Part shown: positions 24,044 to 44,400 of the stretch, piece by piece
Layout of the letters: the number at the start of each line of letters is the position of its first letter
Numbering within the stretch: the first letter of the stretch is position 1
Assembly (NCBI GenBank): GCA_050084515.1
Contig: CM114271.1
Location: forward strand, 42,656,001 to 42,720,000
Source of the DNA: Blasia pusilla
Lineage: Eukaryota
Direction of reading: 5' to 3'
Length of the DNA stretch: 64,000 bases
Notes under the pieces: generated by a model
Databases searched by the model: none
Seen by the model: the letters and a program-made list of their open reading frames with translations, nothing else
What the model was told of the DNA's origin: nothing
Program-made: the position numbers and the translations under genes

Positions 24044-25544
24044 TGTCAAAAACAAAACCCCACGATTCACACTTCGTCGATCACTTCTACGCAAACCAAA
24101 ATCTGAAATCCTCGCATTCTCCCCTCTTAGATCCCGCCCACCGCACTGCACCACTCCAAATTCGCCCGTTCCGCTGCGCTCACTCCACATCAAACGCAGC
24201 AAGAATACTCAATCACTTCCTCCCTGCTGCACCTCCACGCCGGTTTCGACAACTCACCATAGCGATTCCAGTCCTGGCCTTTGCGAAGCTGATTGCAGTG
24301 CTGTGGATCCAACAAACAACTGTGCCTCCTCTGCACTTCAATCGCATTCCCCCACGATTCTCACACCACGCAACCTTAACATTGCGACCGACTCTGCCAT
24401 CTATCTATAAAGCCCTAAACCTTCTTCAAAGGTTTTCTCTTTTCACCACGTCTTGCACTCACGTCTCTGCTCGTGGTTCCGGACGACCTCAAATTTGACG
24501 GCACCTCTATCTTAGACGTGTCTAACTGCGGCGATCGCCTTTGAGTAAGGAAACCCGAGGGTGCTTATTAGGGCGTGTCATTCATTGGCCGGATACGTAA
24601 AGAGCATTTACATTATGCGTAGCCGCGTCTCTCCCTGGCTTACATGGCGCTTGCCCATGACCTTCGGATACTTGATTTTTTGGGTCCTTCTCTTTTTGTT
24701 TTCTTATGGGTTTTTCATCATGCTTATGAATTCAATCCTTTTCATCATGCATATTTATCGTAGGTACATCTTCCTAGGGACGGAAACTGTTGGAAATATG
24801 CGGTACAGACCGCGCATTTATTAGGATCAGATCCCATACATGCATGGGATCCGGCCCTAATGGGTCGCCCATTTTTCTAAGTTCATTACGCGGAAATGGC
24901 ATAGATTTAGTTGATAATGGAAAGGAGTTACGAAAGTTCGGTTTGCTTTGCTACATTGCTTAGTGGAAAACTAGGGTGCAGCGCTTTGAGAAGGGTGGAA
25001 GAGAAATTAATTAGTTAACACGTGTGGAGGACATGTGGATAGCCGAGATTGAGAGAAACAAAAGCGGAGAGTGTCTAAGGGGCGTAACTACTTTTGGCGT
25101 AGAAATAAGGTCGTCACTACCTTTGTGTTGTCCATGGGATCAAGCTCTAAGTGTCTCTGTTCCGGATACTTGGGCGCCTTATGTAGCAAGCAAAATTTTT
25201 GACCGTCTTTTGAGTGTCTTGACCATGAAATACTAACAACCTCCATTTAAGTCTTAGAAAATTCAATATTTTAGATTCCATACTTTCCTACGCGCATGTG
25301 AGTTGAATAAACTAATAGCGGGCTTGGATGTCCAACCATAAGACACATGTGTCCACCTCCGACCATACCTCGCACCAGCGGCCAAAATTTGACCCTATAC
25401 AAAAACTAAAGATTCGGACATCAGACCCTACAATTTTATTTTTTAGATGCCATACTTATGCAAATATATAAATGACACCAATTCTATGAATTGCATTGTA
25501 GCTACATTATTGACCTATTGAGTATTAAACCCCTCAAACGAACT

Positions 25545-26934: not shown

Positions 26935-27556
26935 TGTTGTGCGCATACACATCGCTGTCATCGAACACACACACAAACACGCACGATCCCCTGCTAACTC
27001 ATGGCATCCAAACAACAAGACAAGAAGGATCAAAATATCTCCAATTAAAATAAGATCCAATCTCTCTCACAACACCATAGTTCTCACATATGTGCACGCT
27101 CACATGTCTCTCTCAATGTCAAACCAAACCCACTCTTCTAATGAGAGGCTTGGATTACACACACAAGGAAAGCAAGACCATAGCTTCGTCTCCTCATGCC
27201 AAGAGGTTCAACAAAGAGAGAATGAGCTCTGAACCTCTCTCTCCTTGAGGTATACCTCTCCCCTCTTCCAAACTCTCTCCATGGTAACCTATGCTCCCAA
27301 GTCACCTCCTTGGCTCTTGATGTAGGACGTCAAGGGCCACTTACCAAAAATATAAAGTTGATCATATACTCAAAATGGTACTTACCTAAAATAGTTAGTT
27401 CCTCAATATGGCTCCAAATGAGCTGAAACGAAGGGGAAATCTGCTCTCAGGTTTCCCCGGGCCTAAGTAGGTCATCCTCAACCTACTGAGTCTGTCCTCC
27501 TATACTCACAAAGGTGCTTTACTGGATCTCACTGATCTATCTCAAAAGACGTGAAA
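26935..27556 (-). repeat. Complete terminal repeat (3' LTR; segment A1 26935-27045 plus B1 27046-27556)
   Basis: A1 matches 27559-27686 and B1 matches 36117-36634 along their lengths. Confidence 0.9.
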
Positions 27557-27558
27557 GT

Positions 27559-27686
27559 TGTCGTACGCATACACATCGCTACACAACATACTTCGCTGTC
27601 ACCCAACACACACACAAACCTGCACGATCCCATGTTAACTCATGGCATCCAAACAACGAGACAAGAAGTACCAAAATATCTCCAAT
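27559..27686 (-). repeat. Extra copy of LTR segment A (A2), directly internal to the 3' LTR
   Basis: 'tgtcgtacgcatacacatcgct...aactcatggcatccaaacaac...caaaatatctccaat' repeats 26935-27045. It is separated from B1 by only 'gt'. Confidence 0.9.
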
Positions 27687-27869: not shown

Positions 27870-28010
27870 TGTACATCTGGGACACATCCATCGTCCCTGA
27901 GGAACCCTACTGAGAGGTGGCGTCAAACATGCCATATGCCATCCTCTGGAACACGCATCACAAAATAGTATAGTGGTTGCACCATGGGCGGAACCACACA
28001 ACATACATCG
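27870..28010 (-). pseudogene. PHD finger at the C-terminus of the retrotransposon integrase region
   Basis: 'CMLCGSAHGATTILFCDACSRGWHMACLTPPLSRVPQGRWMCPRC' has all eight C4-H-C3 ligands and the conserved W before the last CxxC (ORF 27858..28223). Confidence 0.92.
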
Positions 28011-28049
28011 CGAGCCTACAGGAACTATTGCTAAGATCAGATCAACTGT

Positions 28050-29100
28050 ATTGTCAATGTTCGGAAGATGACATGGCGCATAGTTACGCACATGGTCCTT
28101 CCAAACCATACCATCGTATCCCTCCAATAAGAGAACATCGGATGGCAAAACCTCACGCACTCTCAAGATGGTGCGCCTTGCAATTACATCCAACGTCGTG
28201 GGTGCCGTCTGCTGTAAGTACACATACTCTGCTTGATGAATCCTCCGGATAGGAGGTCAATAATCACCTCCCCGAATAGTCGCATACCTCAACGTATCCC
28301 GATGTTGCGCAATCGCCATGGGCATCACTCTCTGAAACAATTCAGCCCTCTAAGAACATGCTCGCATCCATATATCAGGGTCATCAAGGTTCAACATCTT
28401 GATGAATGGCCAGAAGTAATTCGGGCTCTCAACCATAAAGTAACAAGTACGGTGAGAAAGACGCTAAGGATGTCTGCCTGCTGAATCTGTATCCCATCGC
28501 CAACCATAGTAACTGAAGGTCTCAATCTCCTAGGTGACCTCTCTACAAGCCATACTTGCATAGTCTTCTCTTCACCGTCTACACAACCTGCTCTGCTAGT
28601 CCATCCGCCTCAGGAAGATCTCGCAAAGTAGTGCGGTGGTCAATCAGTGCCTGATCATACCAGGCCTGAAACTCCACACGGAACTCTGTACCATGGTCTG
28701 TCAACACCTCAGTCGGTGCGCCCTAATGACTCAGCACTGGATCTAGGAAGGCATACGCTACTCCCTCACTCGCTTTGTCAGGCAGTGCAACCAACTCTAT
28801 CCACTTTGAGGAGAGCTTGACCATCACCAACACATAACGACTATGGCGCTCCGTCAAAGCCAAAGGTCCTCCAAAATCCAACTCCATCTATAACCTAAAT
28901 CCATGATCGAAAATGGATGCAACGGTGGAGTCGGAGCATTGAGCGATGCTTGGACTCGATCACACACCATGCATCTGGCAACAAGCTGTTGAACGTTAGT
29001 CAGCATGCCTCCCTACCAATATTGAATTTGGAGCAAGCTGTATGTCCGCTTCACTCCAAAATGACCCAACTTCTCGTGGGCATGACACACCAAACGTGCT
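28050..29100 (-). pseudogene. Retroviral-type DDE integrase, degenerate
   Basis: Zn-binding 'HAHEKLGHFGVKRTYSLL..YW', core 'EVLTDHGTEF' (~28680-28712) and 'HPQADGLAE'-like motif (~28590-28620). Confidence 0.85.
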
Positions 29101-29479
29101 CTCTGCGAAGGATGAGGCACTACACGCACTCTACCATCTTCCCACACTCGCAACACATGTGTGCCCTCCCACCGGAACCGTCTGGCTCGCTGTAGCATCC
29201 GATCCCGCTCTCTTCCACCCAATGTGCTCCCGACGGTGCCAGTAGGCAGGTACCCCAAGACCACTCCATCGTTATGAATGTCTCGGCCACTTGTCGTCTC
29301 CTCACCGGCCTCTGGATCTAAGGACTCTCCATCAGACCTCGCCATCGAAGTCTCAACAATCTGGCTCTCTATAGCCAACAAGCCCAAATAGGCTGACGCA
29401 TGCCATTCTAGCACCAGCTCCTCATCACTCTCACCATGCCAACGAGCTCCAATCGCATCTCGTTGACTCGGGCATGGGT

Positions 29480-30800
29480 TACGGCTCAAACCATTTGCAT
29501 CCTGGTTGAGCAGCCCATATCTATGCACCACTTGGAAGTCATACTCGTGCAACAAAAGAGCCCACCTCACAAGCTTCCCTATAAGCTTATCGGACTCCAT
29601 CAACCACTTATGTGGCTGATGATCAATAATGATGGTAAAGGGATTGCATAATAGATAACATCTGAAATGTGCGACAACCCACACTTAACCCAAGCACTCA
29701 CCCTCATACGAGCTATACTTCGCCTCTACAGCGTTGTTCGAGCGACTAGCGTAAGCCACCATAAACTCTCTACCATCATCGTAATGCGGGGTGAGCACGG
29801 CTCCAAGCCCAACATGCTCCAATCAATATGCAATCTCGTATGCAACTAGCAAGGACGCCCCCTGATCAGTCTCCTCAATATGGGCGCAGACCTCAATTTG
29901 TCCTTGAGCATTTGAAATGCTCTCTCTTGCTCATCCCCCTTGTGCTATTCTTGATCCACCTTGGTCATCAAGGTTAGCAGCTTCGCAATCCAACTGAAAC
30001 CCTTGACATATTGTCGATAGAATTTCACCAATCCATGAATGCACGAACTTGACTCACATCTATAGGGCGTGGAATGCGTGAAATAGCCTCTACCTTCGTC
30101 TGTTGCATACCAAGGCCCCCTGGGTACATCGTATGATCCAAGTACTCAATTTGGTCGTAGAAGAACTTGCACTTTCCTAGATGTAGCTTCTGCCCATGTA
30201 ACCGCAATCATCGAAATATCTCCTCTAGATGTCGCTCATGCTCCTCAACTGTGGCGCTAAAGACTACGATGTCATCAATATAACACTTAGCAAAATCAAG
30301 ACCTGCCAAGATCCTATCCATGACCCTCTAAAACTGAGCCGGGACATTCTTTAACCTGAATGGTAAGAAACGCCACTAGTACAAGCAATCCTTCCCGTGA
30401 GGATCGATGCCCCAAAATGCCGTCTTCTGCCTATCCTCCAATCTGATTGGCAGCTGATAGTATCCGGATAGCAAATCCAATGAACTTAAGAACTTTGCAT
30501 GCCCAATCCCATCAAAGATCTCTTTAGGGGTGGGCATGGCATACCTATCGGACTTCATCTGTCGATTGATAGGTCAGTAGTCTCCACACATCCGCCTATC
30601 CGTCCAGTTGCCATGCACATTCTTCTTGACGGGCATGACAATGGCAGATGCATACTCTCCATGCGACATCTCCACTAATCCTGCTCCAACCAAGTTCTGG
30701 CTCCTACTCTAAATCAGAGCCCTCTCCATGTCACTGTACCTGTAGGGTCGTCGGAAGATTGGTGTGTCACCCGACAACTCAATGCGGATCCCTAGACCCT
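29480..30800 (-). pseudogene. Gypsy reverse transcriptase and RNase H, degenerate
   Basis: RT motifs 'DRYAMPTP.EIFD', 'SSLDLLSGYYQL', 'KTAFWG', 'CYIDDIVVF' (~30265-30288) and 'LHLGKCKF'. RNase H motifs 'VAYASRSNN..E..YSSYEGEC', 'DHQPHKWL' and 'NQDANGLSR'. Confidence 0.93.
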
Positions 30801-31234
30801 TCAGCGTACCCAAATTATGCATACAAAAGGCAAAATATCTCATATAACTCCTAAGGAACTAGTGTATCCGATGCCGCTCTTCTCCTGTCAACTTAGGGCC
30901 CATATTTGGCTCCCAAGTCTCCATCGTGACTACGGTAGGACTCTTCGGCATGGATGTCGGTGGTTGTTATGGTGCAACCCCATCTTGGACAATAGAATTA
31001 TCATCTCCACGTGCAGTACCCGGAACCACGCTCGATGTTGTGGCTATCATCTCCTCGCGTACCTCCAAAATATCCCAAGAAGTCCAAGGGTGTCTCTCCT
31101 GATCATCCCTAGTGTGTTGATCTCCTGGGGTCTCGCCTACACCCACTGCCTCAACCGTGTCGGTAGGCATGGGGCTCACCAACGCAACTTTTATGATCTG
31201 TCGCATCCTCAAACGACATTGCTCAGCTACTCCT

Positions 31235-31880
31235 AAGTTGAAAATCCATGTCAAGCAGTTTAGGTCCATCGCCTTATCCAAGACATGACGTCGTGATGCC
31301 TCTTATAGTGACGGTACTGCCGTCACTCCTGTGGGGAATCCCATCGCTCGCTCTCGCTCATCGGCGTTGGGTTCCACCAACCTCTCTACATGGTCATCCC
31401 AAACCAAGCCAAGTTCGGCCTCCTTGAATGCATACGAAGCAGGAAAACTCACCAATGTGGGAAAGGCTGCTCGTGGAATGCCAATCTTGTTGACCACAGT
31501 CAACGGCGGTCGATCATCGTGCCTCATCGCCTATGATCGACGACCCGGATCCAATATAGAATCCACCAACAAATCGGACAGACGCTCCACTCTCGCATAA
31601 GCCCTCCGCAAAACCTTGTGTGGTGCCAAGTTGGTCCACCAAAGACGCCCGCGGTGTGCTCTAGAACCTACACTCGCCGCATCTAACAACATTGTTGGGC
31701 TGATCCATGCGCACAGCAGATGTATACTCGTCACCACGCGGGACCTTGAATCGCCCAAAATTGGCACATTCTCCAAAATGTATGCTAGAGAACGAGGTCA
31801 ATGCTCCTGTAAATGTCCCAAGATCCGCATCATCTCCCAAAACAACCTAGATCAAGTGTCAGCTAACTCACTACCTCGTC
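31235..31880 (-). pseudogene. DNMT3-like C5-cytosine DNA methyltransferase domain (motifs V-X) embedded in pol
   Basis: One frame, broken by in-frame stops, reads 'SRLFWEMMRIL' (V), 'YILENVP' (VI), 'LDAASVGSRAHRGRLWWTNL' (VIII), 'PNADERERAMGFPTGVT' (IX) and 'SRRHVLDKAMDLNCLTWI' (X). These match DNMT3 'FENV', 'IDA...SAAHRARYFWGNL', 'EMERVFGFP' and 'RQRLLGRSW'. Confidence 0.88.
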
Positions 31881-32099
31881 GAGCACTCATAGAAATATCA
31901 AGAATGGGAGTATCCTCTGCATGGACATGTCCCTCAATCAAATCACTAGGCCAAGTGATGGCACTACTTAATGCTACTAAGGTTGCCATCTGGCCGTTAC
32001 TCGATCGCTGCACTTGTGAATCGAACGGGTAATGAGCTAAGGCACCCATCACCTGACTACCATCCTGGTCTGTAGGACACTGACTCCTCCCTGTAATCT

Positions 32100-32421
32100 A
32101 GGGAAAACCCCATCCGATATAACACTGCTCCACCAACCAAGCGTCGTAGGACTTTGCATCAGTCACTATTGCCTTGGCTCGCATCACGGACTCATCTGTA
32201 GGATGTCCCGGGCGAATCCTTACCACGACCTCATGTCGGGTGATATACTGTGTAGTATTCGCTCCACCCAAGGACGTATGTATCCGGAATGGACAACGCT
32301 CCACATCAGCTATCATCAAGCCCAATCCTTTGAATGACGCTTTCCCCAACATTAAGGGTTGCGCTCCTGAATCCAACAAGACGCGTTGCCGACTAAAAGC
32401 TCTACCTCCGGGACTCACCAA
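32100..32421 (-). pseudogene. Retropepsin aspartic protease
   Basis: Catalytic motif 'RVLLDSGAQPLMLG'. The C-terminal 'YD.LVG' motif is frameshifted. Confidence 0.8.
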
Positions 32422-33199
32422 CTAGAGGCCATGGACCGCTCTATTGCGGGTCTAGCGGGCATGAGCACCATCCTAGCACTCGCAGCCTGCCATGAATCTG
32501 ACGTGGATGGCCCAAGCATCCGCTCCAAGGGCAGGTCCATCACCTCCTCTGCAATTAACTTTGAACGTGATGCAAGAACTCCAACTCCACGCTCACATAG
32601 CGTAGCGTCCAGCCGAAAAACCTTGGCGGACGTGCCTCCCAACGCCATAACATCAGAAGCCGGAAATAAAAGAGTGCGGTACACAACGGTGGCTGCCCCC
32701 AACAATGTGCTCGACACATGCCCCTCCTAAGCATTAGCAATAGGAGTCATCAAACTCATTTCTCCCATCGCCCTCTGTGCCTACACACCAACAACATCAC
32801 CAACTCACCAGGAATTCTGATCAGGACCCATCGATGGGTTCCTCATCGCCTCGGAAAACGTGAAAGATTGAGGAAGCTTGGTCTGCTTCCTGGTGGATCC
32901 AACTCTGCGGTTGATCCACGCATCACAACTACGGCGGCCTCCATCTAGGCAGCCCCGCACATCCAACCACGATCCTCCATATCTCTGGCTTCTCCATATA
33001 ATGTCAATGCCACGGATTTGACATTGGGAAACCTCAATGCCATAGCGGCAATTTTTTCATGTAGCTGTTGTTTCTAAGCAGCCATCCCAGCCTCATGCGC
33101 GGCATCTCCCTCGACACATCTAGGTGGTAGGACTCTACCTCCTCCACGGCCAGCTCCACCACCTTGTCGGGCAACCCCCAACGCAACCTTCTACTACAC

Positions 33200-34450
33200 A
33201 ATCTCTAGGCCCACTTGGACCGGCTAGTCCCTCTAATGCCCTCTTTGGCCCTCGGTCCGAACGTAACTCAGGGTGTAAACTGAAACACCAAACGACTGTA
33301 TGACCATACCTCTGACATTAGTCACACTAATAACCTCGTGGTGCAACAACATCACCTCCTCCATGTTAAGACACACGTCCATGACCTTGACGAGTGCAAA
33401 CATGCTTATGATGGGCTCCACAACATGACCAACAAGTAATCATAGGCGGCTGCTACTGAGTCGTATATGAAGGCGCAGGTCTCTGTGGCACCGCCTCTTG
33501 GTATCCTCCTTGAGCTCGTGGTGCCATAGTCAACCTATCTCGGAGTCCATGTTGCTGCACTCGTGGAGCAGACAATCGTGATTGCTCTTGCTCAGAACCC
33601 ATCGTGGCAACACTCTCCTCCGCCATGTTGCACTCAATATTCTCGGCGGTCCTAAAAACATCTCTCAACGTAGGGGAGGTGTTCATAAGAAGCACCCCCT
33701 CCCGTACACGTGTCCGCAAGGTCCGGTCCAGCATCGCGTACCATGACTGGATAGCCTTAGCCTTTGTCACACCCTAAGTGACGTTGATCAACCGGAGCAA
33801 GCGAGTGTAAGCCTCACACAAACTCTCACGTGCGCCTCTAGAATTTGTGGATGCTCCGGAACTTCTCCGTCTTTACCCCTTGGTAGCCCTCAACTCAGCG
33901 AAGAACTCAACCACGGAGTTGAACATGGGACGAACCCGACTAGACGGTGCAACTGATCCAGTGCAAGTGACCCCTCCTAAAACATCACTAGTGAAAGAGG
34001 AAGTAGCCTCTCTTGACTCCTCCTCCTCATCTTGGAACGGCTCTGTCCATGACACATAGTGTGGGTCATAGTAGAGTCGCCATGCCTCAATCTCTTGGGC
34101 ATATCTATGGGAGAACTCATGATAATCGTCCATGGGCGCCCCCTCTAAATATTGGAACATACCGTTCTATGTTGTAAACGGGTTGAACTCTCTAGAGTTC
34201 CTAGCCCATTGTGAGTCACACATAAACTCCGTAATGAAGTCATGTAGCTCTATGATGCCTATAGCATCCAAAAACCTACGCGGTCCTCTAACCCGGTCAT
34301 GCTTCTCGTACGCCCAATTGGTAGGATCACTCAATGTGTACGGTGGATCACTAACACACTCCTCTACACGCTCACCTTGTCTGAAGATGACATAGAAGAA
34401 GATCAACGTGGTCTCTCACGTGGAGACCCTCCAAACCTCGCACCACTCCG
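33200..34450 (-). pseudogene. Gag-like region with zinc-knuckle remnant
   Basis: Retrotransposon gag-like ORF fragments (34167, 33873, 33453). A CX2CX4HX4C remnant 'CD*CQRYGHTVVWC' lies at ~33285-33330. Confidence 0.65.
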
Positions 34451-36116
34451 GGTAAACCCTCCAGAGCTACTCTCACGTCTACTACTTTGCCTCTCAAAAT
34501 CCTAAAATGACATCGTGATGGCCCTCGTACCCCTCTCACACAATCACTCTCAATCTTGCGAGTAATCCCTCAATCACTCAAACTAAACATGCGGCGCTCA
34601 ATCTACACTCTCTCACTGAGATGTGTGTTGTACGGAAACAAGCAGCGTGGCGCGGCAAATCAACTGATCTATTGTCTCATCGACAAACCATCCTCAACTA
34701 TGGACATCCCACAGAGGTCTATGTCCCCTTAACCCATACAGCATCGATGCTCCTAGCATCAACATGAAACCCAATATCTCAAATAACTTCCCGATACTAG
34801 AAAATCCCTCACACGTGTAGGGTAAGACACCAGAATGGGTAACTTGAAAATAATCTTGATGTCGCTCCTCAGCAATTGCAAATCTCGACCCCAACTCGGT
34901 CGTGGAGACAACTCCTCCAATCAGCAAGTCGTACTCCTCCTGGACTGACGCTGCTCAAACCTCCTCGATGTGCGGTGCATGTCCAGCGGTCCGATGCGGC
35001 ACTAACGCACGGCTCTCGGGAATGGGGTACGGCACTCGGCGGCATACCCTCCTCAATCAACAATTCACATGCTCTTCTCCTTAGTGGGAGCGGCTCTACG
35101 ATCAAGACTGTGCGGTGTGGCCACGACCGGCACGGCGCGGCAATCAGTGGCGCGTTGGAGCTACGTGCGTCACGGCAAGGTACTCGATCGTCGTCGAGCG
35201 GCTACCAATCACAACATAGCAACATGAAATGAAAACTCAAACACCATAACCCGAGGTCACCTGCCATCACTCGTTGATGATGAAAATATGATGACGATGG
35301 CAGCCAAACCAAAGTACGTGGTGGCGGCGCAAGTCAGAGAATCAATGGGGGTCATGGAAGACCCTCCACTCCGTAATGGTGGCAATGGCAACCAAATGGT
35401 GGATAACGGCCGGACGCGGCTTTGAGCAACGCTAGGCGGTGGCAGCGGTCGACGGTGGATGGTAGACGGTGGACCGTTGATGGTGATAGTTGACCGTTGA
35501 TGGAAACGGCAAACCGCTGACGGTGAAGGTTGACCTTTGACGGTGACTATGACGGCGACGGCTGGTTTAGGGTTTGAACAATTTATTCCTAAAAATCGCC
35601 TAGTTATGGCAATTTTGCAAGATTGACCATAAATTTTTGCTCACAACTCCAAATTGTGCACCGTTTGTTGTACACCATGCAAAGCTTCACGATCTACAAC
35701 AACATCAAAAAATATTTGGAATCAAACATTCTTATCAAAACTGACGGGACTGTTGTAAAGCCCAATGTCTCTTTCTCCTACACAAAATTTGGCAGTGCTT
35801 CCGCGTTTATTTATCCCGGCGAAAATGTAAACATGTGAGAACACAAATCAAAAAGCTACATGGTGCTCCCAAAAGCACCGGCATGGAGCAATCCACCCCC
35901 ATACTCAATTCCTATCGAAAATTGGGCAGCGCTTCCGCGTGCCACTCTCCCGTACAAAAAATCAGCAAAGCAAATCAGCAAACTCGCCCGACTCTTGCTC
36001 TGGTGAGCACTCCCATGAGCCATGAAGCGGGGAACAGGGTGCCCCAACTTGCACCAAACATCAAGCAACCAGCGAGCTCCCCCATGAAGCTCTCTCACTC
36101 ACTCATCCTCTCTTTG

Positions 36117-36634
36117 TAAAATAAGATCCAACTTCTCTCACAACACCATAGTTCTCACATATGTGCACTCTCACATCTCTTTTTCAATGTCAAACCAAAC
36201 CCACTCTCCCAATGAGAGGCTTCGGTTACACACACAAGGCAAGCAAGACCATAGCTTCGCCGCCTCATGCCAAGAGGTTCTACAAAGAGAGAATCATCTC
36301 TCAAGCTCTCTCTCTTTGAGGTATATCCCTCCCCTCTTCCAAGCTCTCTCCATAGTAACCAATTCTCCCAAATCACCTCCTAGGTTCTTGACCTGATGTA
36401 GGAGGTCAAGGGCCACCTACCAAAAATAGAAAGTTGATCATATACTCAAAATGATACTTACTTAAAATAGTTAGTTCCTCAATATGGCTCCAATTGAGCC
36501 GAAACAAAAAGGAAACCTGCTCTCTTAGGTTTCCCCGGGCCTAAGTAGGTCATCCTCGACCTACTGAGTCTATCCTCCACTACTCACAAAGGCGCTCTAC
36601 TAGATCTCACTCATCTATCCTAAAATACGTGACA
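36117..36634 (-). repeat. 5' terminal repeat consisting of segment B only (B2)
   Basis: Matches 27046-27556 from 'taaaataagatcc' to 'cgtgaca'. Segment A is absent on its internal side. Confidence 0.9.
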
Positions 36635-36965
36635 AAAGAAATGTGTGCATGTGTGCAATTGGATTTGCTTCGTTATAAATATTCTAATAAGAGAGATAAG
36701 CAAGTGATAGAGACAATTGCTTGGATAGCTAGGAAGAAGGAAAACTTGATGGATTGGCTTGAAACAGATCTCGAAAAATACTTTAATTGCATGGCAAAAC
36801 AACAATGTTATAAATGGTTCGAGAAGAGGAATTTAGAGAAACTAAAGGAGGATTGTGGGAAAAGAGCATGTACGTATGTGCCTAAAGAGGAGAGGTATGG
36901 ACATTCAATGGTTTAGAAAGAGTGTACAAATTTTGGGCTTGGAAGTAGCTCTTATAAGTCCTCTA

Positions 36966-37302
36966 TGTCGTGCGCATACACATCGCTACATAATACATAT
37001 GGTTGGTCACATCCACACCACATAACACTGATCTTCCCAAAATAAGGGTAGATCCACACACGTACAAAAAATAAACTCATGGAGATTGTATAACAAAACT
37101 AGAGTAAAATTGCCTCTCACAGCCAACATTACTCTCGAATCTACATTGGCATATCGAGCCACATCCACCCTCTGCTACAAGGGAATCCGAATGTTAGCAT
37201 CATAGTTCCTACCTCATCCGCAAGAGAGGTGCTCCAAAGGCCCAACATGAGAAAGATGGATCGGGAAAGTCATCTCTCCCTCTCTTATAGCCCCTAAAAA
37301 AG
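36966..37302. repeat. Start of another related LTR (A-type terminus), interrupted by a solo LTR at 37303
   Basis: 'tgtcgtgcgcatacacatcgctaca' matches the A terminus, then diverges. Confidence 0.6.
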
Positions 37303-38582
37303 TGTGATACCCACAATTTTGTACTTTCAGAAATTTATACATTTTGATTCAAGGAATACAGATTCTATGAGGTGAAGATTGTACATATAAGACTTTTATA
37401 GATATTATGTTTGTGAAATTGGAAGAATGAGTTATATTGAAATGGATCACAAGCTCCTAAGACAAGGCAGAGAGGTGGAAAATCAAGGATTTGCCTTAGA
37501 GGAGATGGAAATGCGGTAACAAAGTCTAAAGACTAAGAGCGAAGCTTGGAAAAGATAACAAAGCCTTATTAAGAGCTTGTTAATCAAGTGCTTCGCTCTT
37601 GAACAAAGCATGATGAAGACGAAGAGGAAGAAGTACTTCGCTCTTCAGCGAAGCACGAAGACCGAAGCACCTGGAACAAGAACGAAGAATGCAGCGCTTT
37701 GTCCTCAAGGGACAAAGAAGAAGTCCAGACTTAGCAGCGAAGCGAAGCTAAGACTCAAAGTGATTTCAAGCGGCCCACCGTTAGCGTAGTTAGACTAGGA
37801 AGAGGCGTGACTTTTTGGACCATATAGGAAGTTAGGCCAGTTACGCCCAGCGGATTCATAGCGATCATAGGAAAAGATAAGAGAACCGTAGATTAAGGTA
37901 GTTACAAACTCTCAATAGACACTAGATTCGTAAGAGATGCTTCAGATCTTTGGACTTACTACTACCTCGGAAGATATTTACGAAGCATGAAAGTAGCTAT
38001 CATCATCATTCTTTCACCAAGTCCTTATGTTGTAGGAATGATCCGAGCAAGAGAGTAGTACCCTCTCGAGCTTGTATAACACTTTGAAGCTTTCTCATTC
38101 TTTATGGAGTAGTAAAGCACTCATTTCTTCATTCTGATGTGCGATGTATATGTTTGAGAATTCTGATTAGGTCTGCAGAGTGAAGAGTGAATCAGGAGAA
38201 CACTTCCATCATTATAATAATCAACACGGAGTAGTAAGAAATTTGTTTGACAGAGAATAGACTGCCTAGACGCATTGAGTTCCAAAAGTAGGAGAAGCCA
38301 GCTTCTTGTTGAGGTCTCTATGAGGTTCTTTGATGTTGAGTGAAAATCTACCTGAGTATGATTTCAATTCCACTGGAGAGCATCGAGGAAAGAAATCTTG
38401 GTACTAATAGAGAGAAGAATGCACTGATAAGTGATTGAATCGGAAATGTACACACGTAACTACAACTATTGCAAGATAACCGCCATCTTGAACTCTCTTT
38501 TCACATAATCGTGATCCTCTTGGGAATCGAACTCATAAAATTATTGTAAAAAGACCAACTATTAAACTTCTTGTACATTACA
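37303..38582. mobile_element. Solo LTR (1280 bp) with 5-bp TSD
   Basis: Ends TGTGAT...ATTACA and is flanked by AAAAG on both sides. Non-coding. Confidence 0.8.
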
Positions 38583-39989
38583 AAAAGCCATCCCATTGGT
38601 GACCTCCGTGCACAAGTTACCTAGTGATCCTAGACTTGGTCGATAAGTCACCTCGCTAACACAAAAGAAAAGGAAATCGCCATAAATGACTCTCCTTGAC
38701 ATGACCTACTACCCTATACGCATTTATGACATAACCATAGGCTGTGGGAATGACATCAACACGGGGTGGCAAACACGACTTATGCCACCCTCAAGAACAA
38801 CCATCACACACCAACCTCGCTGATGCACCCCTCGCAAAGCCACACAACATACACCTCAAGCCCGCACATACTAGTGCCAAGCTTGGATCCACTCTTATAG
38901 CCAAACGGCTCTTACCCCAAAAATAGTCATCCCACCAATAACTTGCATGCACATGTTATCAGGTGATCCTTGACCTAGTCAACATGTCACCAAGTTGACC
39001 CAAAAAAAAGGGGAAATCTCTAGAAACGATGTTCCCAACACAAAGGACTTGTAACCAACCTCATCCGACATCTCAAGACGAACTTACACCCAAAAAGCCC
39101 GTTGACCTTCTATGTCGTCAAGGCGATAGAACTCTACTTGCGCAAACTAAGATGTGATATCTACCTCTTTCTATTCAACATCAGTTATCTTTGAACACTA
39201 TAGTGATTTTGAACTCTTTCCCCCATAGAGGTCTTCTATGATGGTTGTTGATCATGTTACATCTAAGAGCTCTATTACGGTTCAGGAGATGGAGGTGGAT
39301 CATGCTATACACGTTAATATTGAGGACTCGAGACGGAGAGTGACGTAGACCAGATCTATGGGAGAAATCATTGTATCTCACGAGAGATTACCACAAGTCT
39401 TCAAAAGGCTCAAGAAGAGAGTAACACATGAGGTTGGTCATGACTCTCCCACAATAACTAGACCCCAATTTCCATGGAGGAAGATCAAGATAATCTAGGA
39501 GACCCATCGATCACCGCAACCCTAGCCGCAACTTAAGTTGGAGGAATGAAAGGCATTTCATTGTCTACAAGCATAGACCCTCACACTAATCTGTATGAGA
39601 TTATCGTAAAGAGCACAAGTATCTCACCACAAAAAGATAATCCAGATTTTGGTTCTCTTAGCACAAGTCCATCTCATGGGGATAGAGACTTTGTAGGGGA
39701 AAGTCCCACTTCACGAATAAGGATCATTTGAATCCCTCTTTTGACCACCTCCATACATGGTGGTTTGGATCCCATTCAAGTAGGAATTTTGGATATCTGG
39801 AACCACTTCAATGTGAATGGAAGTTGCCACTATTGCTACATCATTACAAGAACTCCCATGCATTCCATCCATTTAGAAACCTTTCGTATTAATAAATGTG
39901 TAGGATTATAAAATTGGTGGTAATACTCCATTGAATAACTTTTAACATTGGATGTACCATTGGATCTTATGTATCACAAATTCCTAAAA

Positions 39990-41450
39990 TAGGACCTAGA
40001 AGTAGGCCACATGACGTGATTTGAGGCGAAAGCTGCATTCGTGGATGTCAATGTCGCTTTTTGGTGTAAATTGGAGGGAGCTTGTCTATATTGCAAAGAT
40101 TTTTAACAAGAAAAGGTTGCAAATTAACAAGGATGGAAAGCCATGTCACGGTTCATATGATTCGATATACAAGGACACCCCAAAGATGTATGCTTCAAGA
40201 ATATCAGACAATCTTAGATCTTATATTAAAGATAGGCTCCACCTTGGGGTAAAGCCCATTAGATTACATTAAAGTGTTGTGTCATATTGAAGATGCGATA
40301 TATGATCGATTGATCCAAATTTTTAATAAAGCATGAAGAGAGATGATTTCTTGCAAATGCCTAATATTTCCAATGTGAAGAAGGAGTTGAATATGAATAC
40401 TTTTTACTCTTATATTAGTGAAATTAATTCATTGAGATCATTTTTTCCACTTATATCCAAAGAAGGTGATAATAGATAATACAAAGTCCTTCATCTTAGG
40501 CTTCCAAAGCATATGGAAATTGCAAATATTGGTGAAGTTTGGACACAACAGCGCATTGGATATGTATAGTACATTTGGAATGAGTTGAAGCAAAGTAAGT
40601 TCAATACATGTTATGAAGTTGTTTCACAAAAAAATGCATCACTAATTTATTGAGCGAAGTCTCTAACACTATGCTAATAGCTTTTTTTGTGGGTTGCATG
40701 AGTGTAGTTCCCCTTATACACAATTTTGGTATTTGATGATCATACTAGGATACTGGTGGCATGGGTTTTGACAAATATCTCAAAAGAGATGTATTTGGTC
40801 AAATGGATGAAGACAATGATAGAAAAATATAAGATAATGTCGTCCAATTATAAGCCTAATGAAATCATTGTGGATGATGCAAATACATAGCAAAATCCCT
40901 TGAGGTTTGTCCCTCCACTTAGTAACTTGGAATAAGTATGCAAGTGATTTGTATAATTATTTCGACAATTTAAATTTTGGCATGCATCATACTCACATGG
41001 AAAGCATTCCAACTATGCAAATCCAGTGAAATTTTGTAGTTTTCATTTGATGTAGAGAGAAATTTAGAGGTGTAAACATCATTCTTCGCCTTTAGCACAA
41101 ATAACACAATTGTTTGAAGCAATTGAAGTGCAAGGTTCATTGCCCCTTTCTAATAGCAAAAATATCACGACGCCTTGGTGAAATAATGTACATTAATCAT
41201 TATGGTATCCATACAAAAGGTTAGATCTTGTATGATACAAGAGGCGACTTGCAAAAATTCTATGCAGACTTGAGCAAGGAAGTCAAAATTGTGAAATACA
41301 TCCTGACTTATTGGGATACCAATCTAGGCAAGTTCATGGAATCTCTCGTGTCTCTTGCATTTTCCCTTTATATCATCCTTAGGTTGTGTACTATACATTC
41401 AATATGTAGTAACTCTTGCTGGTTTTTTGTGCAGAAAAATATGAATTAGA
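39990..41450 (+). pseudogene. Degenerate Mutator-like (MULE) transposase remnant
   Basis: Translated fragments 'FPLYTILVFDDHTRILVAWVLT' (~40705-40772) and 'KPNEIIVDDA' (~40852-40880) resemble the MULE DDE core. Many stops and probable introns. Recognised by eye only. Confidence 0.5.
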
Positions 41451-44400
41451 GCAGCAAGGGACTACTCAAGCGGTCTTGAGACGTAGGATCAAATGTAGGC
41501 TCAAATTAAGGAATGTGGATAGAGATTGAAAGGATGTGCGAGCCTCTTGAGGCAAAGCATAGGCTCTTTGTAGGCTACGAAACGGGTGGCAAGAATGGGC
41601 GAAGGGTTAGTAGATTTGAGTGCGGGCTAACTAAGTCTGGGTCTATGTTGTGGGCAGTGAAAACGTGGGTCTACACGGGTATGTTTGACGAATATCAATC
41701 TATAGGAATGGGCTTTGTTCATATGCAACCTTAGGCATGACATAAGTAGGAATATGCTATCTACAAATGGTGAGGATTGATTCAAATATTACATTACATT
41801 GATCGTAGACCAACACTTTGGATCTGAATGAAGTACCATCAAAAGTAGCATGTATTTTCTCCACTCAATGAATTCAGACTTCAAGATAAATCCTTGCTAT
41901 TGAGGTGTTTTCTAGTCTTGACCATTTTGAGGGATGAGTATTGATTTGTAAGAGAATACATACAAGCTCACAAGGCAAGCGTGGAACACTGGAACCATGT
42001 CTTTGTTCCAAAGTGAGGAGGATCATGTGATTGTTGTGCTCATGGGGTGATGACATTGGTACCTTTGGATACCACACTCATTGTAAGGAAATATCTAGAG
42101 GATAGTGAAAGACGGGATTGGATGCAATGTTGCAAGTTTGCATATGAATGTATCTATATGTTATAGAGAGATGAGATTGCACAACGAGTCTCATTATGCC
42201 ATGTGGCGAGGTTGGTCCGATAATATCTTAAGTTACTACCAACAACTTGGAATATATGGGAATCAACATACATTTCTTATATATATTTCATTGTTGGGGG
42301 CCGCATGATCTGGATAGGTTTGGCATCATTCAAACCTAGTAATTTTGTGACCACTAGATGGCCATGTCAAGGTTATTCATCAAGAGGTTGGGGGCTTGGT
42401 TTATATGATCCGAGATCACGTATATCTTAGGAGATTTTGCCACTATTACAAGACTTGCAAGAGAGTCACATATGTTTTTCAATATACATCATGGAGAATA
42501 TGCCATTTTTAGTAGATACTTGTGCATGAATCTTTACGAGAGTTTATAGAGTAAGGTCTTGGTTAGGACCAACATTGTTGTTAGGTGTGGACAATGTTGG
42601 ACGAGCCTACTACCATCAAAGGTATTGAGGCGAGCTTGTGATGGAGTTTAGAGAGCATTGTACTTGACAATGAATGTTAGTTATCTTGGATCTAAGGTGA
42701 TGGTCTTAGGTGGTGATCCATGACGACATATCACCATGGGGTGTAGCCAATATGGTGTGGGAGTTGATGGCAACATTGCCTATGTTGATGAGATTTCTAA
42801 CACATGTCTTTCATCAAGGAGGACTTTGGATGATACAAGATGATCATCGCTCATTAGCATTAGGGACCTAATGCTAATGAGCGAGAGCAAGAAATGGATT
42901 TCTCTTTGGGGACAGCGGACCTGAACTTTCTCACATAGATAAGCGTCTGAGGTTTGGTTGAACATCTACGTATGCCGACAACATCCATTCTCTCGCATCC
43001 AGGTATTTGTATTTGAATATTGGCTACACAGATTATTGAGTTGTTGGCTAGCGACAAGGCAAGGAGAGATAGGCACACATGCACTTCCTAAGATGTCATT
43101 TGAGTAGAGAATGAAAAGATGGCTAGATTAGTACATATTATTTTTTAAAATATCGAGCATGATGTTGGAGATGAAGGTGGGATATTACTATTGGAGAGTA
43201 TTTTTTTGATTTGCAAACACCATGTGGCAAGAAAATGTTTCACGTGCCACAGGTAACAAGAAAATTTCAATTTGTGCTTAACATCATCAATCTCCACGGT
43301 CCATACTCTCCTCGTTCCCTTTTCTATTTCGCACGCCGTCGAGATGAGGGACGGGAGTTTGTTATGACTCACCCAAGCCCCATCAAGAACACTCGAGTCC
43401 CCTCCAAACATCACGTCAAATTTCATCTTCACTTCGTTCTTCCAATTCGATCTCCGTTCATGCAATGCTCCGCCCATTCTTATGCAACGCTCCGTTTTGC
43501 TCAGGCGTTCATCAACCGATTATTTGGGCTCCGGGACACACGCCGCACCGTCCGGGTCCTTTTCCAAAGCATGCACCCGTTCACTATCGTGAATTCCGTA
43601 GTAGTCGACTGTCCGCTCTCATGAATTCCACGGTGTTCACCCGCTCTCTCTTGTGCTCCCTGTCGACTACGGTGCTCCTCCGGTAAACGCAATGAATCGA
43701 AACCATGGATGGAGTGATGGATTGATTCCCTGTCCACTACGGTGCTCCATCGGAAACAAGGATGGAGCCATCCGTGTTTCCGATCCAATGGGTTTCATTC
43801 CGGATGGATTCCGCCATTTTCACCGTCGCTGTTCCGATTCACTTACACGTACAGTAAGTGAATCTGGGGGTTTGAGTCGATTTCCATCGAAAAGGAAGAG
43901 GAGGCGGTGCTCCGATTCTTTTCTACGAACAGTAGGCGGTTTGGGAGTTCGAGTCTATTTCCGTCGAAAGGGAGAAAGGGCTGACTAGCTAAATTGGGGT
44001 TTGAGGAGGCCATTTTATCCCGGTTTCGTAGAAACCGGAAGGGAAGACAAGTTAAAATCTCGACAGATGCCACACAATGACGATGCACATTTCGCTAGAG
44101 ATGGCAGTGAGATCCGTGCACGGCATGTGAAATGTGAACTGGCATCTAGCTTCATGAAATTGCCATGCCATGCCATGCCACCCTATGCCATTTCACTAAA
44201 TCTAGTGACATTTCACTTGGAATGTCGAACATTCATAAACCGGGCGTACTCGGAGAATACCGGGATATGAGATGTAGGGCATTTCAACCAGATAACAGCT
44301 TGGTCATCTCTATCACAGATCCATGATTCCATGCCCCTGCGTCATTTGTTTACAAAAAGGGGAAAAACTCTCTTGCGTACTCGAACCTGGAAGCAATTAC

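What the first reader, a model, noticed from the sequence alone, without database searches (positions are those of the whole stretch)
31235..31880. Gypsy retrotransposon carrying its own DNMT3-like DNA methyltransferase inside pol
Seen: C5-MTase motifs V, VI (ENV), VIII (AHRxRxWWxNL), IX (ERAMGFP) and X lie between the protease and the RT. They share the minus-strand frame of the protease ORF (32421) and an RT fragment (30558), so they look like part of the polyprotein rather than a captured host gene; no introns are visible. Known: the motif VIII-X wording is DNMT3-like, and the linear motif order differs from the permuted plant DRMs. DNMT-bearing retrotransposons have been reported from dinoflagellates and the charophyte Klebsormidium (de Mendoza et al. 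2018) but are not a standard part of land-plant gypsy elements. Inference: active relatives may methylate their own cDNA or insertion site.
Basis: partly seen in the sequence, partly recalled or inferred. Interest (0 to 1): 0.9.

Follow-up and report, generated by a model that had tools for sequence, protein, structure and literature searches.

The report
Dead Gypsy retrotransposon carrying a DNMT3-type methyltransferase
This is a broken copy of a plant "jumping gene" whose family carries its own DNA-methylating enzyme, a kind first described in a freshwater alga and here found to be abundant and transcribed in what is probably a moss or liverwort.

Summary
On the minus strand at 31225-31884 lies the C-terminal two thirds (motifs V-X) of a DNMT3-type cytosine-5 methyltransferase. 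It sits between the protease and the reverse transcriptase of a Ty3/gypsy element: gag-PR-MT-RT-RNaseH-IN-PHD, about 26.9-37.0 kb.

This copy is dead:
- A deletion of about 170 codons removed motifs I-IV, including the catalytic cysteine.
- There are 10 in-frame stops in 682 codons, several small indels, and flanking repeats only 89% alike.

It is not a one-off capture:
- 843 protein clusters match the domain.
- Intact relatives have the same gag-PR-MT-RT order in Klebsormidium nitens (the published Gypsy-DNMT3 host), Closterium, Marchantia, Riccia, Calypogeia and Sphagnum.
- Chlorophyte relatives place the domain between RNase H and integrase.
- Across 203 near-full domains the catalytic Cys is kept in 200.
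- The nearest solved structures are DNMT3A/B/C.

In whole-genome reads of the source organism about 1 read in 100 lays on this family. RNA-seq shows sense-strand transcripts from other copies.

Verdict: a new member of a known kind, apparently not yet described for land plants. Methylation of the element's own cDNA remains untested.

The parts
36117..36632 (-). 5' flanking direct repeat (unit B)
   Evidence: 89% identical over 516 columns to 27046-27554. Highest genomic read depth of the stretch, about 2570.
36633..36965 (-). Insertion of about 333 bp private to this copy, inside the 5' repeat region
   Evidence: Family reads join 36632-36635 directly to 36966-36968 (table 5). The 28 bases at 36966-36993 match 27559-27586.
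32436..34292 (-). gag, with a CX2CX4HX4C zinc knuckle near 33285-33326; read through stops
   Evidence: tblastn: Marchantia P0160 residues 8-603 align here at 35% identity, joint E 3e-93. Knuckle read from the translation. No Pfam family on this piece.
32012..32421 (-). Aspartic protease (LLDSGAQ at 32379-32359), broken by a 1-base deletion at 32141
   Evidence: Weak Pfam gag-asp_proteas/Asp_protease_2, E 0.1-0.16. tblastp/tblastn to the protease of P0084, P0006 and P0160, with a frame change at 32143/32140. About half of the family reads carry one more base at 32141.
31888..32011 (-). Conserved post-protease linker (TWPSDLIEG..AEDTP), ending at the deletion breakpoint near 31888
   Evidence: Aligns with the linker of Marchantia and Calypogeia proteins. 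1359 genomic reads run on into unlike sequence at 31888 (table 7).
31225..31884 (-). DNMT3-type C5-methyltransferase remnant, motifs V-X only, with 4 in-frame stops
   Evidence: Family HMM positions 116-338 of 349, E 1.9e-73. PDB phmmer hits only DNMT3A/B/C below E 1. 66% identity to Calypogeia P0158 over 209 columns.
30034..30930 (-). Reverse transcriptase
   Evidence: Pfam RVT_1 E 8.2e-21, 75.1 bits against a cut-off of 29.6. 59% identity to Marchantia P0165.
29541..29684 (-). RNase H (C-terminal part lies in this ORF)
   Evidence: Pfam RT_RNaseH E 3.3e-10 on ORF 29013-29684, residues 1-48.
29016..29111 (-). Integrase H2C2 zinc-binding domain
   Evidence: Pfam Integrase_H2C2 E 2.3e-6, ORF residues 192-223.
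28423..28881 (-). Integrase catalytic core (5 stops)
   Evidence: Pfam rve E 3.8e-9, 37.1 bits against a cut-off of 32.6.
27873..28007 (-). PHD finger at the C-terminal end of pol
   Evidence: Pfam PHD E 1.5e-11, 44.6 bits against a cut-off of 24. The same position as in relatives P0013, P0024 and P0186.
26935..27686 (-). 3' repeat block in the order U - B - U: U 27686-27559, B 27554-27046, U 27045-26935
   Evidence: The two U copies (97 nt) are 90% identical. Sequences read.
42164..43124 (+). Second, older relic of the same methyltransferase, keeping WPCQ (motif IV) and ENM for ENV
   Evidence: Family HMM positions 43-283, E 8.1e-11. tblastn from P0020, P0064 and P0003. Genomic depth only 7-22, so it is far from the current family.
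38746..38892 (-). Isolated PHD-finger relic of another copy
   Evidence: tblastn from the PHD regions of P0145, P0047, P0152 and P0024, E 2e-7 to 5e-6, with one in-frame stop.

Best explanation
The region is a decayed, non-functional copy of a Ty3/gypsy retrotransposon of the Gypsy-DNMT3 kind. Its Gag-Pol reads gag - protease - DNMT3-type cytosine-5 methyltransferase - RT - RNase H - integrase - PHD finger.

Shown here:
- The domain order.
- The homology to intact elements, including that of Klebsormidium nitens.
- Conservation of all catalytic motifs across the family.
- A DNMT3-like fold of a relative.
- High copy number and sense transcription of the family in the source organism.
- The defects of this copy.

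Inferred for intact relatives:
- The methyltransferase is made as part of Pol.
- It travels with RT and integrase in the particle or pre-integration complex.
- It methylates cytosines of the new cDNA or of DNA at the insertion site.
- The PHD finger, sitting where chromoviruses carry a chromodomain, tethers integrase to histone H3 tails.

This copy can do none of this. It lacks the SAM-binding half and the catalytic cysteine.
For: Anatomy:
- Pfam hits for RVT_1, RT_RNaseH, Integrase_H2C2, rve and PHD.
- Collinear tblastn of Marchantia gag-PR-MT-RT proteins from 34292 to 29148, and of P0156 as far as 28122.
- Flanking repeats 89% alike.

Identity of the domain:
- Family HMM E 1.9e-73.
- A profile of 23 relatives against the PDB: DNMT3A 1.4e-24, DNMT3B/C about 1e-22, DRM 6.6e-14, M.HhaI 6.5e-10.
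- AlphaFold model of relative P0019: pLDDT 86.2, pTM 0.84.
- Every Foldseek row listed (ranks 1-49) is a DNMT3A/B/C chain, with TM-score to the target about 0.8.

It is a family, not a capture:
- 843 clusters at E<=1e-3 and 446 at E<=1e-10.
- Of the 155 proteins examined, 66 show RT/RH-MT-IN(-PHD) pieces, 9 show PR-MT(-RT), 79 show MT alone and 1 shows IN-PHD.
- K. nitens GAQ93235.1 (P0129) matches at E 5.8e-25 and has zf-CCHC, protease and DNA_methylase in that order.

Selection: of 203 near-full domains, motif IV Cys is kept in 200, ENV Glu in 202 and Asn in 200, and motif I second Gly in 202.

Source organism:
- 124,689 of 12,434,590 genomic reads lay on the stretch at 85% likeness or more.
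- Depth is about 1250-2170 on the coding part of the element, against about 0-5 in unique flanks.
- RNA-seq depth is 16-131 on the sense strand against 0.3-7.6 antisense in three runs.

Decay of this copy.
Against: - No enzymatic activity is known for any Gypsy-DNMT3 domain. The K. nitens domain gave no methylation in yeast, which the authors called inconclusive (PMC5890265, section 10).
- PF00145 does not hit this copy.
- I could not show that the source genome holds an intact copy. RNA reads on the element are mostly 85-95% alike, so they come from other copies of unknown state.
- The source organism's name was coded, so 'land plant' rests on nearest homologues only: 55-66% identity to liverworts and Sphagnum.
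- About half of the family has E-C rather than P-C in motif IV. The effect of this on catalysis is unknown.
Confidence: 0.92

Rival explanations
1. One-off capture: this single gypsy copy picked up a fragment of the host's own DNMT3 gene (or its processed mRNA), and the frame agreement with pol is accidental.
For: The frame agreement with the protease is partly accidental, because two deletions sum to 6 bases. Only the C-terminal part of the domain is present.
Against: - The same PR-MT-RT order occurs in 21 of the 29 proteins and in K. nitens and Closterium.
- Genomic read depth over the MT part is about 1250-1800, like the rest of the element.
- The reads continue at the breakpoint into sequence that resembles the relatives' linker.
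- The copy sits inside a 99%-supported clade of element-borne domains.
Confidence: 0.02
2. The family's methyltransferase does not act on the element's own cDNA. It methylates host chromatin around insertions, or RNA, or it serves mainly as a DNA-binding or structural module of Pol.
For: - The K. nitens domain was inactive on DNA in yeast.
- The authors themselves raise RNA methylation for the LINE-borne DNMT (PMC5890265 discussion, passages seen).
- The motif IV proline is replaced by glutamate in 91 of 203 domains.
Against: - Near-invariant catalytic Cys, ENV, and SAM-binding glycines (200-202 of 203) argue for a working C5-methyltransferase rather than a scaffold.
- The closest solved relatives are DNA enzymes, not DNMT2: DNMT3A 1.4e-24 against DNMT2 2.4e-3.
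Confidence: 0.3
3. Assembly or nesting artefact: the MT-like stretch belongs to a different repeat inserted into, or mis-joined with, a gypsy element.
For: The neighbourhood is a pile of repeats: a PHD relic at 38.7 kb, an MT relic at 42.2 kb, and a private 333-bp insertion.
Against: - Collinear alignment of single Marchantia proteins across gag, PR, MT and RT.
- No joint in the genomic reads at either edge of the MT part other than the deletion breakpoint at 31888 (only the best-supported rows were shown).
Confidence: 0.02

Closest known systems
KnitGypsy-Dnmt3 of Klebsormidium nitens (de Mendoza et al. 2018, PMC5890265; sections 9 and 10 and passages read)
   Same: - An LTR-Gypsy Pol with an intronless, non-permuted DNMT3-type domain.
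- A K. nitens protein (GAQ93235.1 = P0129) matches the window's domain at E 5.8e-25 with 34% identity, and has the same zf-CCHC - protease - DNA_methylase order.
- The window's flanking repeats can be read as A - coding - B - A - B. That is the arrangement the paper describes for its elements.
   Different: - The host is not K. nitens. The nearest named relatives are liverworts and Sphagnum.
- This copy is dead.
- A PHD finger follows the integrase here. The K. nitens protein on record is partial and ends within the MT domain, so whether it has one is unknown. The paper's figure 4c and its supplements were not visible to me.
- The family here is very abundant (about 1% of reads), whereas the paper says K. 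nitens has few copies.
Animal DNMT3A/3B/3C catalytic domain
   Same: - Best sequence and fold match.
- Linear motif order I-X in intact relatives.
- The wording of motifs VIII-X.
   Different: - About 20% identity.
- No PWWP or ADD module next to the domain.
- Embedded in a retrotransposon polyprotein.
- A target-recognition insert of different length (the model has 349 positions against about 285 residues).
- This copy lacks motifs I-IV.
Chlorophyte gypsy elements with RT-RNaseH-MT-IN-PHD (e.g. 'pol' of Scenedesmus sp. PABB004, and hypothetical proteins of Haematococcus lacustris, Monoraphidium neglectum and Cymbomonas tetramitiformis)
   Same: The same methyltransferase family, the same PHD finger after integrase, and the same gypsy RT/IN.
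   Different: - The methyltransferase sits between RNase H and integrase, not between protease and RT.
- In the domain tree, 32 of 35 such rows fall on the other side from the window's clade (SH-aLRT 93).
- I found no paper describing them.
Chromoviruses (Ty3/gypsy with an integrase chromodomain)
   Same: A chromatin-reader module at the C-terminal end of integrase in a plant gypsy element.
   Different: No chromo hit appeared.
Plant DRM methyltransferases
   Same: Second-best solved relatives (6.6e-14).
   Different: DRM has permuted motifs. Here the order is linear in relatives and in relic 2, where motif IV comes before VI.

Membership tests
Gypsy-DNMT3 retrotransposons (type: KnitGypsy-Dnmt3) | Ty3/gypsy pol domain set in the order PR, RT, RNase H, IN | tested here: met
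   Pfam RVT_1, RT_RNaseH, Integrase_H2C2 and rve. Protease identified by homology.
Gypsy-DNMT3 retrotransposons (type: KnitGypsy-Dnmt3) | DNMT3-type domain inside the pol reading frame, without introns | tested here: met
   HMM positions 116-338 at 31884-31225, in the frame of PR and RT. Only a remnant is left.
Gypsy-DNMT3 retrotransposons (type: KnitGypsy-Dnmt3) | Direct homology to the K. nitens element protein, with the same domain order | tested here: met
   P0129 = GAQ93235.1: E 5.8e-25, and CCHC - protease - DNA_methylase.
Gypsy-DNMT3 retrotransposons (type: KnitGypsy-Dnmt3) | Repeat arrangement A - coding - B - A - B (DIRS-like) rather than two plain LTRs | tested here: inconclusive
   5' side: B. 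3' side: U-B-U. This is also compatible with LTR = U+B, a damaged 5' LTR and an extra partial repeat.
Gypsy-DNMT3 retrotransposons (type: KnitGypsy-Dnmt3) | Conserved catalytic residues / purifying selection on the domain | tested here: met
   Met at family level: Cys 200/203, Glu of ENV 202/203. Not met in this copy. Ka/Ks was not computed because no DNA of relatives was available.
C5 cytosine methyltransferase, DNMT3 type | All ten motifs in linear order, with SAM-binding motif I and catalytic PC(Q/N) motif IV | tested here: not met
   This copy lacks HMM positions 1-115, which hold motifs I-IV. Relatives have HMM positions 4-340.
C5 cytosine methyltransferase, DNMT3 type | Pfam PF00145 above the gathering score | tested here: not met
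   0 families for this copy. Relatives score 31-58 bits against a cut-off of 22.
C5 cytosine methyltransferase, DNMT3 type | DNMT3-like fold | tested here: met
   Tested on relative P0019 only: Foldseek top rows are all DNMT3A/B/C, with TM-score to the target about 0.8.
C5 cytosine methyltransferase, DNMT3 type | DNA methylation activity | not testable with these tools
   The published yeast assay of the K. nitens domain was negative and called inconclusive.
Chromovirus | Chromodomain at the integrase C-terminus | tested here: not met
   A PHD finger is found instead, E 1.5e-11.
DRM | Permuted motif order (VI-X before I-V) | tested here: not met
   Linear order in relatives and in relic 2.

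The most novel reading that the evidence does not exclude
Gypsy elements that carry a DNMT3-type writer plus a PHD reader form one old lineage spread through the whole green lineage. The named chlorophyte examples have the methyltransferase after RNase H. All named streptophyte examples (Klebsormidium, Closterium, liverworts, Sphagnum and this window) have it after the protease. In at least one land plant the family is still expressed and makes up about 1% of the genome. That is enough for element-made methyltransferase to write part of the host methylome, or to have exchanged genes with host DNMT3/DRM.
Probability: 0.3. Interest if true: 0.75.

Novelty: new member of a known kind. Interest (0 to 1): 0.5.

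Why it matters
Retrotransposon-borne cytosine methyltransferases have been described only from dinoflagellates and one streptophyte alga, where copies are few.

The present data add the following:
- The same kind of element, with the same domain order, sits in public liverwort and moss proteomes as 'hypothetical proteins'.
- It reaches about 1% of the genomic reads in this organism.
- It is transcribed from the sense strand.

Consequences:
- Bryophytes such as Marchantia are transformable and have methylation mutants. They could serve to test what an element-encoded DNMT3 does: self-methylation of cDNA, mimicry of host marks, or self-limitation.
- Counts of 'DNMT3' genes in bryophyte genomes may include transposon copies.

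Tried and rejected
- Pfam on the copy itself gave no DNA_methylase hit. This is explained by the deletion.
- The PDB alignment put the window's 'PSDLIEG' on DNMT3A's 'PFDLVIGG' (motif IV neighbourhood). I rejected this. The stretch is the conserved post-protease linker of the family (TWPDDLLE..AEDTP in Marchantia and Calypogeia).
- I first tried to read 'PIL' as a mutated PCQ and dropped it for the same reason.
Copy counts therefore come from reads only.
- The look-up of sequencing runs listed no RNA holder. RNA evidence comes from the three raw-read runs that I laid.
- A primer-binding site next to the 5' repeat was looked for by eye and not recognised.
- The target-site duplication was not resolved.
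- Host lineage: the 840-aa host ORF gave only a sub-threshold DUF761 hit, so it does not settle the lineage.
- Rooting the domain tree on host DNMT3 or DRM was not possible, because no host DNMT3 sequence was obtainable from the tools. The tree is unrooted and made by the quick method, from 72 rows chosen out of 255 (all 26 class A, 35 of 160 class B, 11 of 68 unclassified).
- Literature searches found no paper describing DNMT-bearing gypsy elements in bryophytes or chlorophytes. Subscription journals and the supplements of PMC5890265 and PMC12344493 were not visible and may hold such data.

Full report
**The observation**

The minus strand from 32421 to 30376 is a single frame of 682 codons with 10 stops. 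It starts with an aspartic-protease motif (LLDSGAQ) and ends in the N-terminal part of a reverse transcriptase.

Pfam's DNA_methylase model hits neither the pieces nor the read-through. A phmmer search of the 311-residue read-through against PDB sequences found 28 sequences at E<=10. Of these, 27 are DNMT3A, 3B or 3C (best 1.3e-5) and one is unrelated at E 1.3. A full HMMER scan of 1.84 billion representative proteins gave 843 clusters at E<=1e-3, 446 at E<=1e-10 and 53 at E<=1e-30. The stretch is therefore far more than chance.

**The element**

Going down the minus strand, Pfam or homology identifies:
- gag at 34292-32436, with a CCHC knuckle;
- protease at 32421-32012;
- the methyltransferase remnant at 31884-31225;
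- RVT_1 at 30930-30034 (E 8.2e-21);
- RNase H;
- the integrase zinc domain;
- the integrase core at 28881-28423 (E 3.8e-9);
- a PHD finger at 28007-27873 (E 1.5e-11).

Single Marchantia proteins align collinearly across gag, protease, methyltransferase and RT.

The coding part is flanked by direct repeats that are 89% alike over 516 columns, at 36117-36632 and 27046-27554. On the 3' side the large repeat (B) is bracketed by two copies of a roughly 100-130-nt unit (U), giving the order U-B-U. On the 5' side only the last 28 nt of U precede B, separated from it by 333 bp that family reads skip.

This can be read as A - coding - B - A - B. The legends of figures 1e and 4c of PMC5890265 (seen) give that arrangement for DIRS elements and say the K. 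nitens gypsy elements share it. A damaged ordinary LTR pair is not excluded.

**Why this copy is dead**

I built an HMM from 83 near-full domains found among the hits. The window matches positions 116-338 of 349 (E 1.9e-73), so positions 1-115 are missing.

Marchantia P0160 and P0165 and Calypogeia P0158 align up to 31897 and resume at 31884, with 166-178 of their residues unmatched between. Those residues hold motif I (LLDLFGGISTG), motifs II-III and motif IV (GWPCQGH) with the catalytic cysteine.

In whole-genome reads of the source organism, 1359 reads that fit the window above 31888 run on into unlike sequence there. The translation of that continuation resembles the relatives' linker at that point. 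The deletion is therefore private to this copy or to a minority of copies.

Further defects:
- 10 stops in the PR-MT-RT frame. Relatives have Arg or Gln at four of them: Arg in 12 of 13 at X190, Gln in 12 of 13 at X208, Gln in 12 of 13 at X297, and Arg in 3 of 3 at X616. Three of these (X190, X297, X616) are one C-to-T step from Arg or Gln; X208 is not.
- Single-base deletions relative to many family reads at 32141, 30032, 29807 and 28879.
- A 5-base deletion at 31989.
- A gap of at least 40 bases at 32423.
- The 333-bp insertion.

The 1-base and 5-base deletions together restore the frame. That is why the protease and the methyltransferase appear to share one frame.

Where nearly all reads differ from the window, window-T to read-C (385 places) and window-A to read-G (344 places) make up 729 of 1644 places, against 364 for the reverse changes. 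This is the pattern expected from deamination of methylated cytosines in this copy.

**It is a family**

I classified the 155 proteins then held by local phmmer with domain probes:
- 79 show the methyltransferase alone (short fragments);
- 66 show pieces of RT-RNaseH-MT-IN-PHD;
- 9 show pieces of PR-MT-RT-RNaseH-IN;
- 1 shows IN-PHD.

Pfam confirmed both orders on full-length examples.

Named relatives come from three searches.
- With the window's domain as query, the 'longer' search gave 29 proteins at E<=1e-10. They include 12 from Marchantia polymorpha and 1 from Calypogeia fissa (63% identity), plus Sphagnum fallax, S. troendelagicum and Haematococcus lacustris. Of the 29, 21 have protease before the methyltransferase, 5 have the RT-RH-MT-IN-PHD order, 1 has MT-RT-RH-IN-PHD, 1 has MT-RT and 1 has MT alone.
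- The 'near' search gave 163 proteins at E<=1e-8, of which 120 were listed. They add Marchantia paleacea, Riccia sorocarpa and Sphagnum jensenii. No hit exceeds 66% identity.
- A profile search for long proteins gave 109 hits. Named ones are Monoraphidium neglectum, Scenedesmus sp. PABB004 ('pol'), Haematococcus and Cymbomonas tetramitiformis, all with the RT-RH-MT-IN-PHD order. One is labelled as a bacterial MAG, presumably mis-binned.

Cluster look-ups named P0129 as Klebsormidium nitens GAQ93235.1, and P0060, P0065 and P0074 as Closterium. Pfam gives P0129 the order zf-CCHC, protease, DNA_methylase (58.4 bits).

Thus every named protein with the protease-first order is a streptophyte, and all 7 named proteins with the RNase H-first order are chlorophytes. 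This rests on named proteins only.

In an unrooted quick maximum-likelihood tree of 72 domains over 223 columns:
- The window's copy lies in a clade of 17 rows (SH-aLRT 99) that holds all named bryophyte sequences.
- It is nearest to Calypogeia (66% identity over 209 columns).
- 32 of the 35 RNase H-first rows lie on the other side (support 93).
- The K. nitens row sits on the window's side in an unresolved position.

**What the domain is**

Across 203 near-full domains:
- the catalytic Cys is present in 200;
- the Glu and Asn of ENV in 202 and 200;
- the second Gly of motif I in 202;
- Arg, Arg and Trp of motif VIII in 198, 201 and 202;
- the residue before the Cys is Pro in 100 and Glu in 91.

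A profile of 23 relatives scores DNMT3A at 1.4e-24, DNMT3B/C near 1e-22, tobacco DRM at 6.6e-14, DRM2 at 1.7e-10, M.HhaI at 6.5e-10 and DNMT2 at 2.4e-3. An AlphaFold model of relative P0019 (pLDDT 86.2, pTM 0.84) finds only DNMT3A/B/C chains in the listed Foldseek rows, with a TM-score of about 0.8 relative to the target. The model and profile are of relatives, not of the window's broken copy.

**The family in the source organism**

One whole-genome run and three RNA-seq runs carrying the same coded species label as the best holders of the stretch were laid on 28000-47990 at 85% likeness or more.

Genomic reads:
- 124,689 of 12,434,590 reads read (1.0%) were laid.
- Only 206 of them were 99% or more alike, and 86,840 were under 90% alike.
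- Summed depth is about 1250-2170 in the bins covering pol and most of gag (28000-32668 and 33336-34002). It falls to about 970-1190 in the remaining gag-side bins and to about 680 just inside the 5' repeat.
- Depth is about 2570 on the 5' repeat.
- Depth is 0-5 in the unique stretches 39339-42006 and 43341-47990.
- The family therefore has on the order of hundreds to a few thousand copies or fragments.
- The run's library label contains the word cDNA. However, the well-expressed host gene at 45.4-47.9 kb has depth below 1 in it, so it behaves as genomic DNA.

RNA reads:
- Across the three runs, depth with the first mate on + is 16-131 in the bins from 28000 to 35336, against 0.3-7.6 on the other strand.
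- The polarity is the same as for the minus-strand host ORF at 45400-47922 (33-122 against 0.04-8.5).
- The transcripts are therefore sense.
- Most RNA reads on the element are 85-95% alike, so they come from other copies. Nothing shows that this copy is expressed or that the expressed copies are intact.

**Mechanism**

Shown: the anatomy, the homology, the conservation and the expression described above.

Inferred:
- In intact elements the domain is translated within Gag-Pol, directly upstream of RT.
- It is therefore present where cDNA is made.
- Its conserved catalytic set suggests it methylates cytosines in DNA.
- The PHD finger occupies the place of the chromodomain in chromoviruses. It probably binds histone H3 tails and steers integration.

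Whether the enzyme marks the element's own cDNA, the insertion neighbourhood or RNA is open. The only published test of a Gypsy-DNMT3 domain gave no methylation in yeast, and the authors called it inconclusive because human DNMT3B also failed (PMC5890265, section 10).

**Comparison with the literature**

- PMC5890265 (sections 9 and 10 and passages read) reports Gypsy-DNMT3 only from K. nitens. It describes few copies and Ka/Ks below 0.2, and calls it an acquisition in the K. nitens lineage.
- PMC12344493 (passages read) and the 2026 preprint 10.64898/2026.05.21.726589 (passages read) refer to 'streptophytes (Gypsy-DNMT3)', citing that work.
- Seven full-text searches found no description of such elements in bryophytes or chlorophytes, nor of the PHD finger association. 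Supplements and subscription journals were not visible.

I therefore file the window's element as a new member of a known kind. The added points are its occurrence in bryophytes, the two domain orders that follow the chlorophyte/streptophyte split among named proteins, the PHD finger, and the high copy number with transcription.

**Limits**

- The organism's name was coded. Calling it a bryophyte rests on nearest homologues.
- The tree is unrooted.
- Copy number is a rough ratio of depths, and only about 1 in 100 of the run was read.
- No intact copy of the source genome was seen.

Noticed in passing
window 42164-43124 (+): An older relic of the same methyltransferase domain. It has many stops and low GC (0.40). 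It keeps WPCQ (motif IV) and part of the N-terminal half that the main copy lost. No protease or RT was recognisable beside it, and genomic depth is only 7-22.
   Followed up: partly
window 38746-38892 (-): An isolated PHD-finger relic with one in-frame stop, homologous to the PHD region of the family. Some genomic reads join 38892 to 28059 of the main copy. The stretch 36.7-39.3 kb is itself repetitive, with depth about 90-300.
   Followed up: partly
window 26935-27686 and 36117-36993: The flanking repeats are not a plain LTR pair. The 3' side reads U-B-U and the 5' side reads (28 nt of U)-insertion-B. This fits the split direct repeat order A-coding-B-A-B reported for K. nitens Gypsy-DNMT3 and for DIRS elements (PMC5890265 figure 1e and 4c legends).
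   Followed up: partly
relatives (203 domains): The proline of the catalytic 'PC' dipeptide is glutamate in 91 of 203 domains (71 of 148 RNase H-first, 9 of 24 protease-first). The cysteine is kept in 200. This is unusual for C5-methyltransferases as far as I recall.
   Followed up: no
window 57604-61496 (-): A Ty1/copia element with long open frames: Pfam RVT_2 (E 2e-17), Pol_BBD (8e-22) and gag_pre-integrs (1.7e-12).
   Followed up: partly
window 23726-24208 (-), probably extending down to about 8 kb: First exon of a class I aminoacyl-tRNA synthetase: Pfam tRNA-synt_1 E 1.3e-5, with an HLGH motif. From memory it looks like leucyl-tRNA synthetase. CpG observed/expected in 8-24 kb is only 0.34, against 0.72 inside the element.
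   Followed up: no
window 45400-47922 (-): An 840-codon open frame for a proline-rich, repeat-bearing protein with one predicted membrane-like stretch. It is well expressed in all three RNA-seq runs (depth 33-71 over the ORF) and has only a sub-threshold DUF761 hit at its C-terminus.
   Followed up: no
P0192: A 1974-aa gypsy polyprotein with this methyltransferase is on record under a bacterial MAG label (Minisyncoccia). It is most likely eukaryotic DNA binned by mistake.
   Followed up: no
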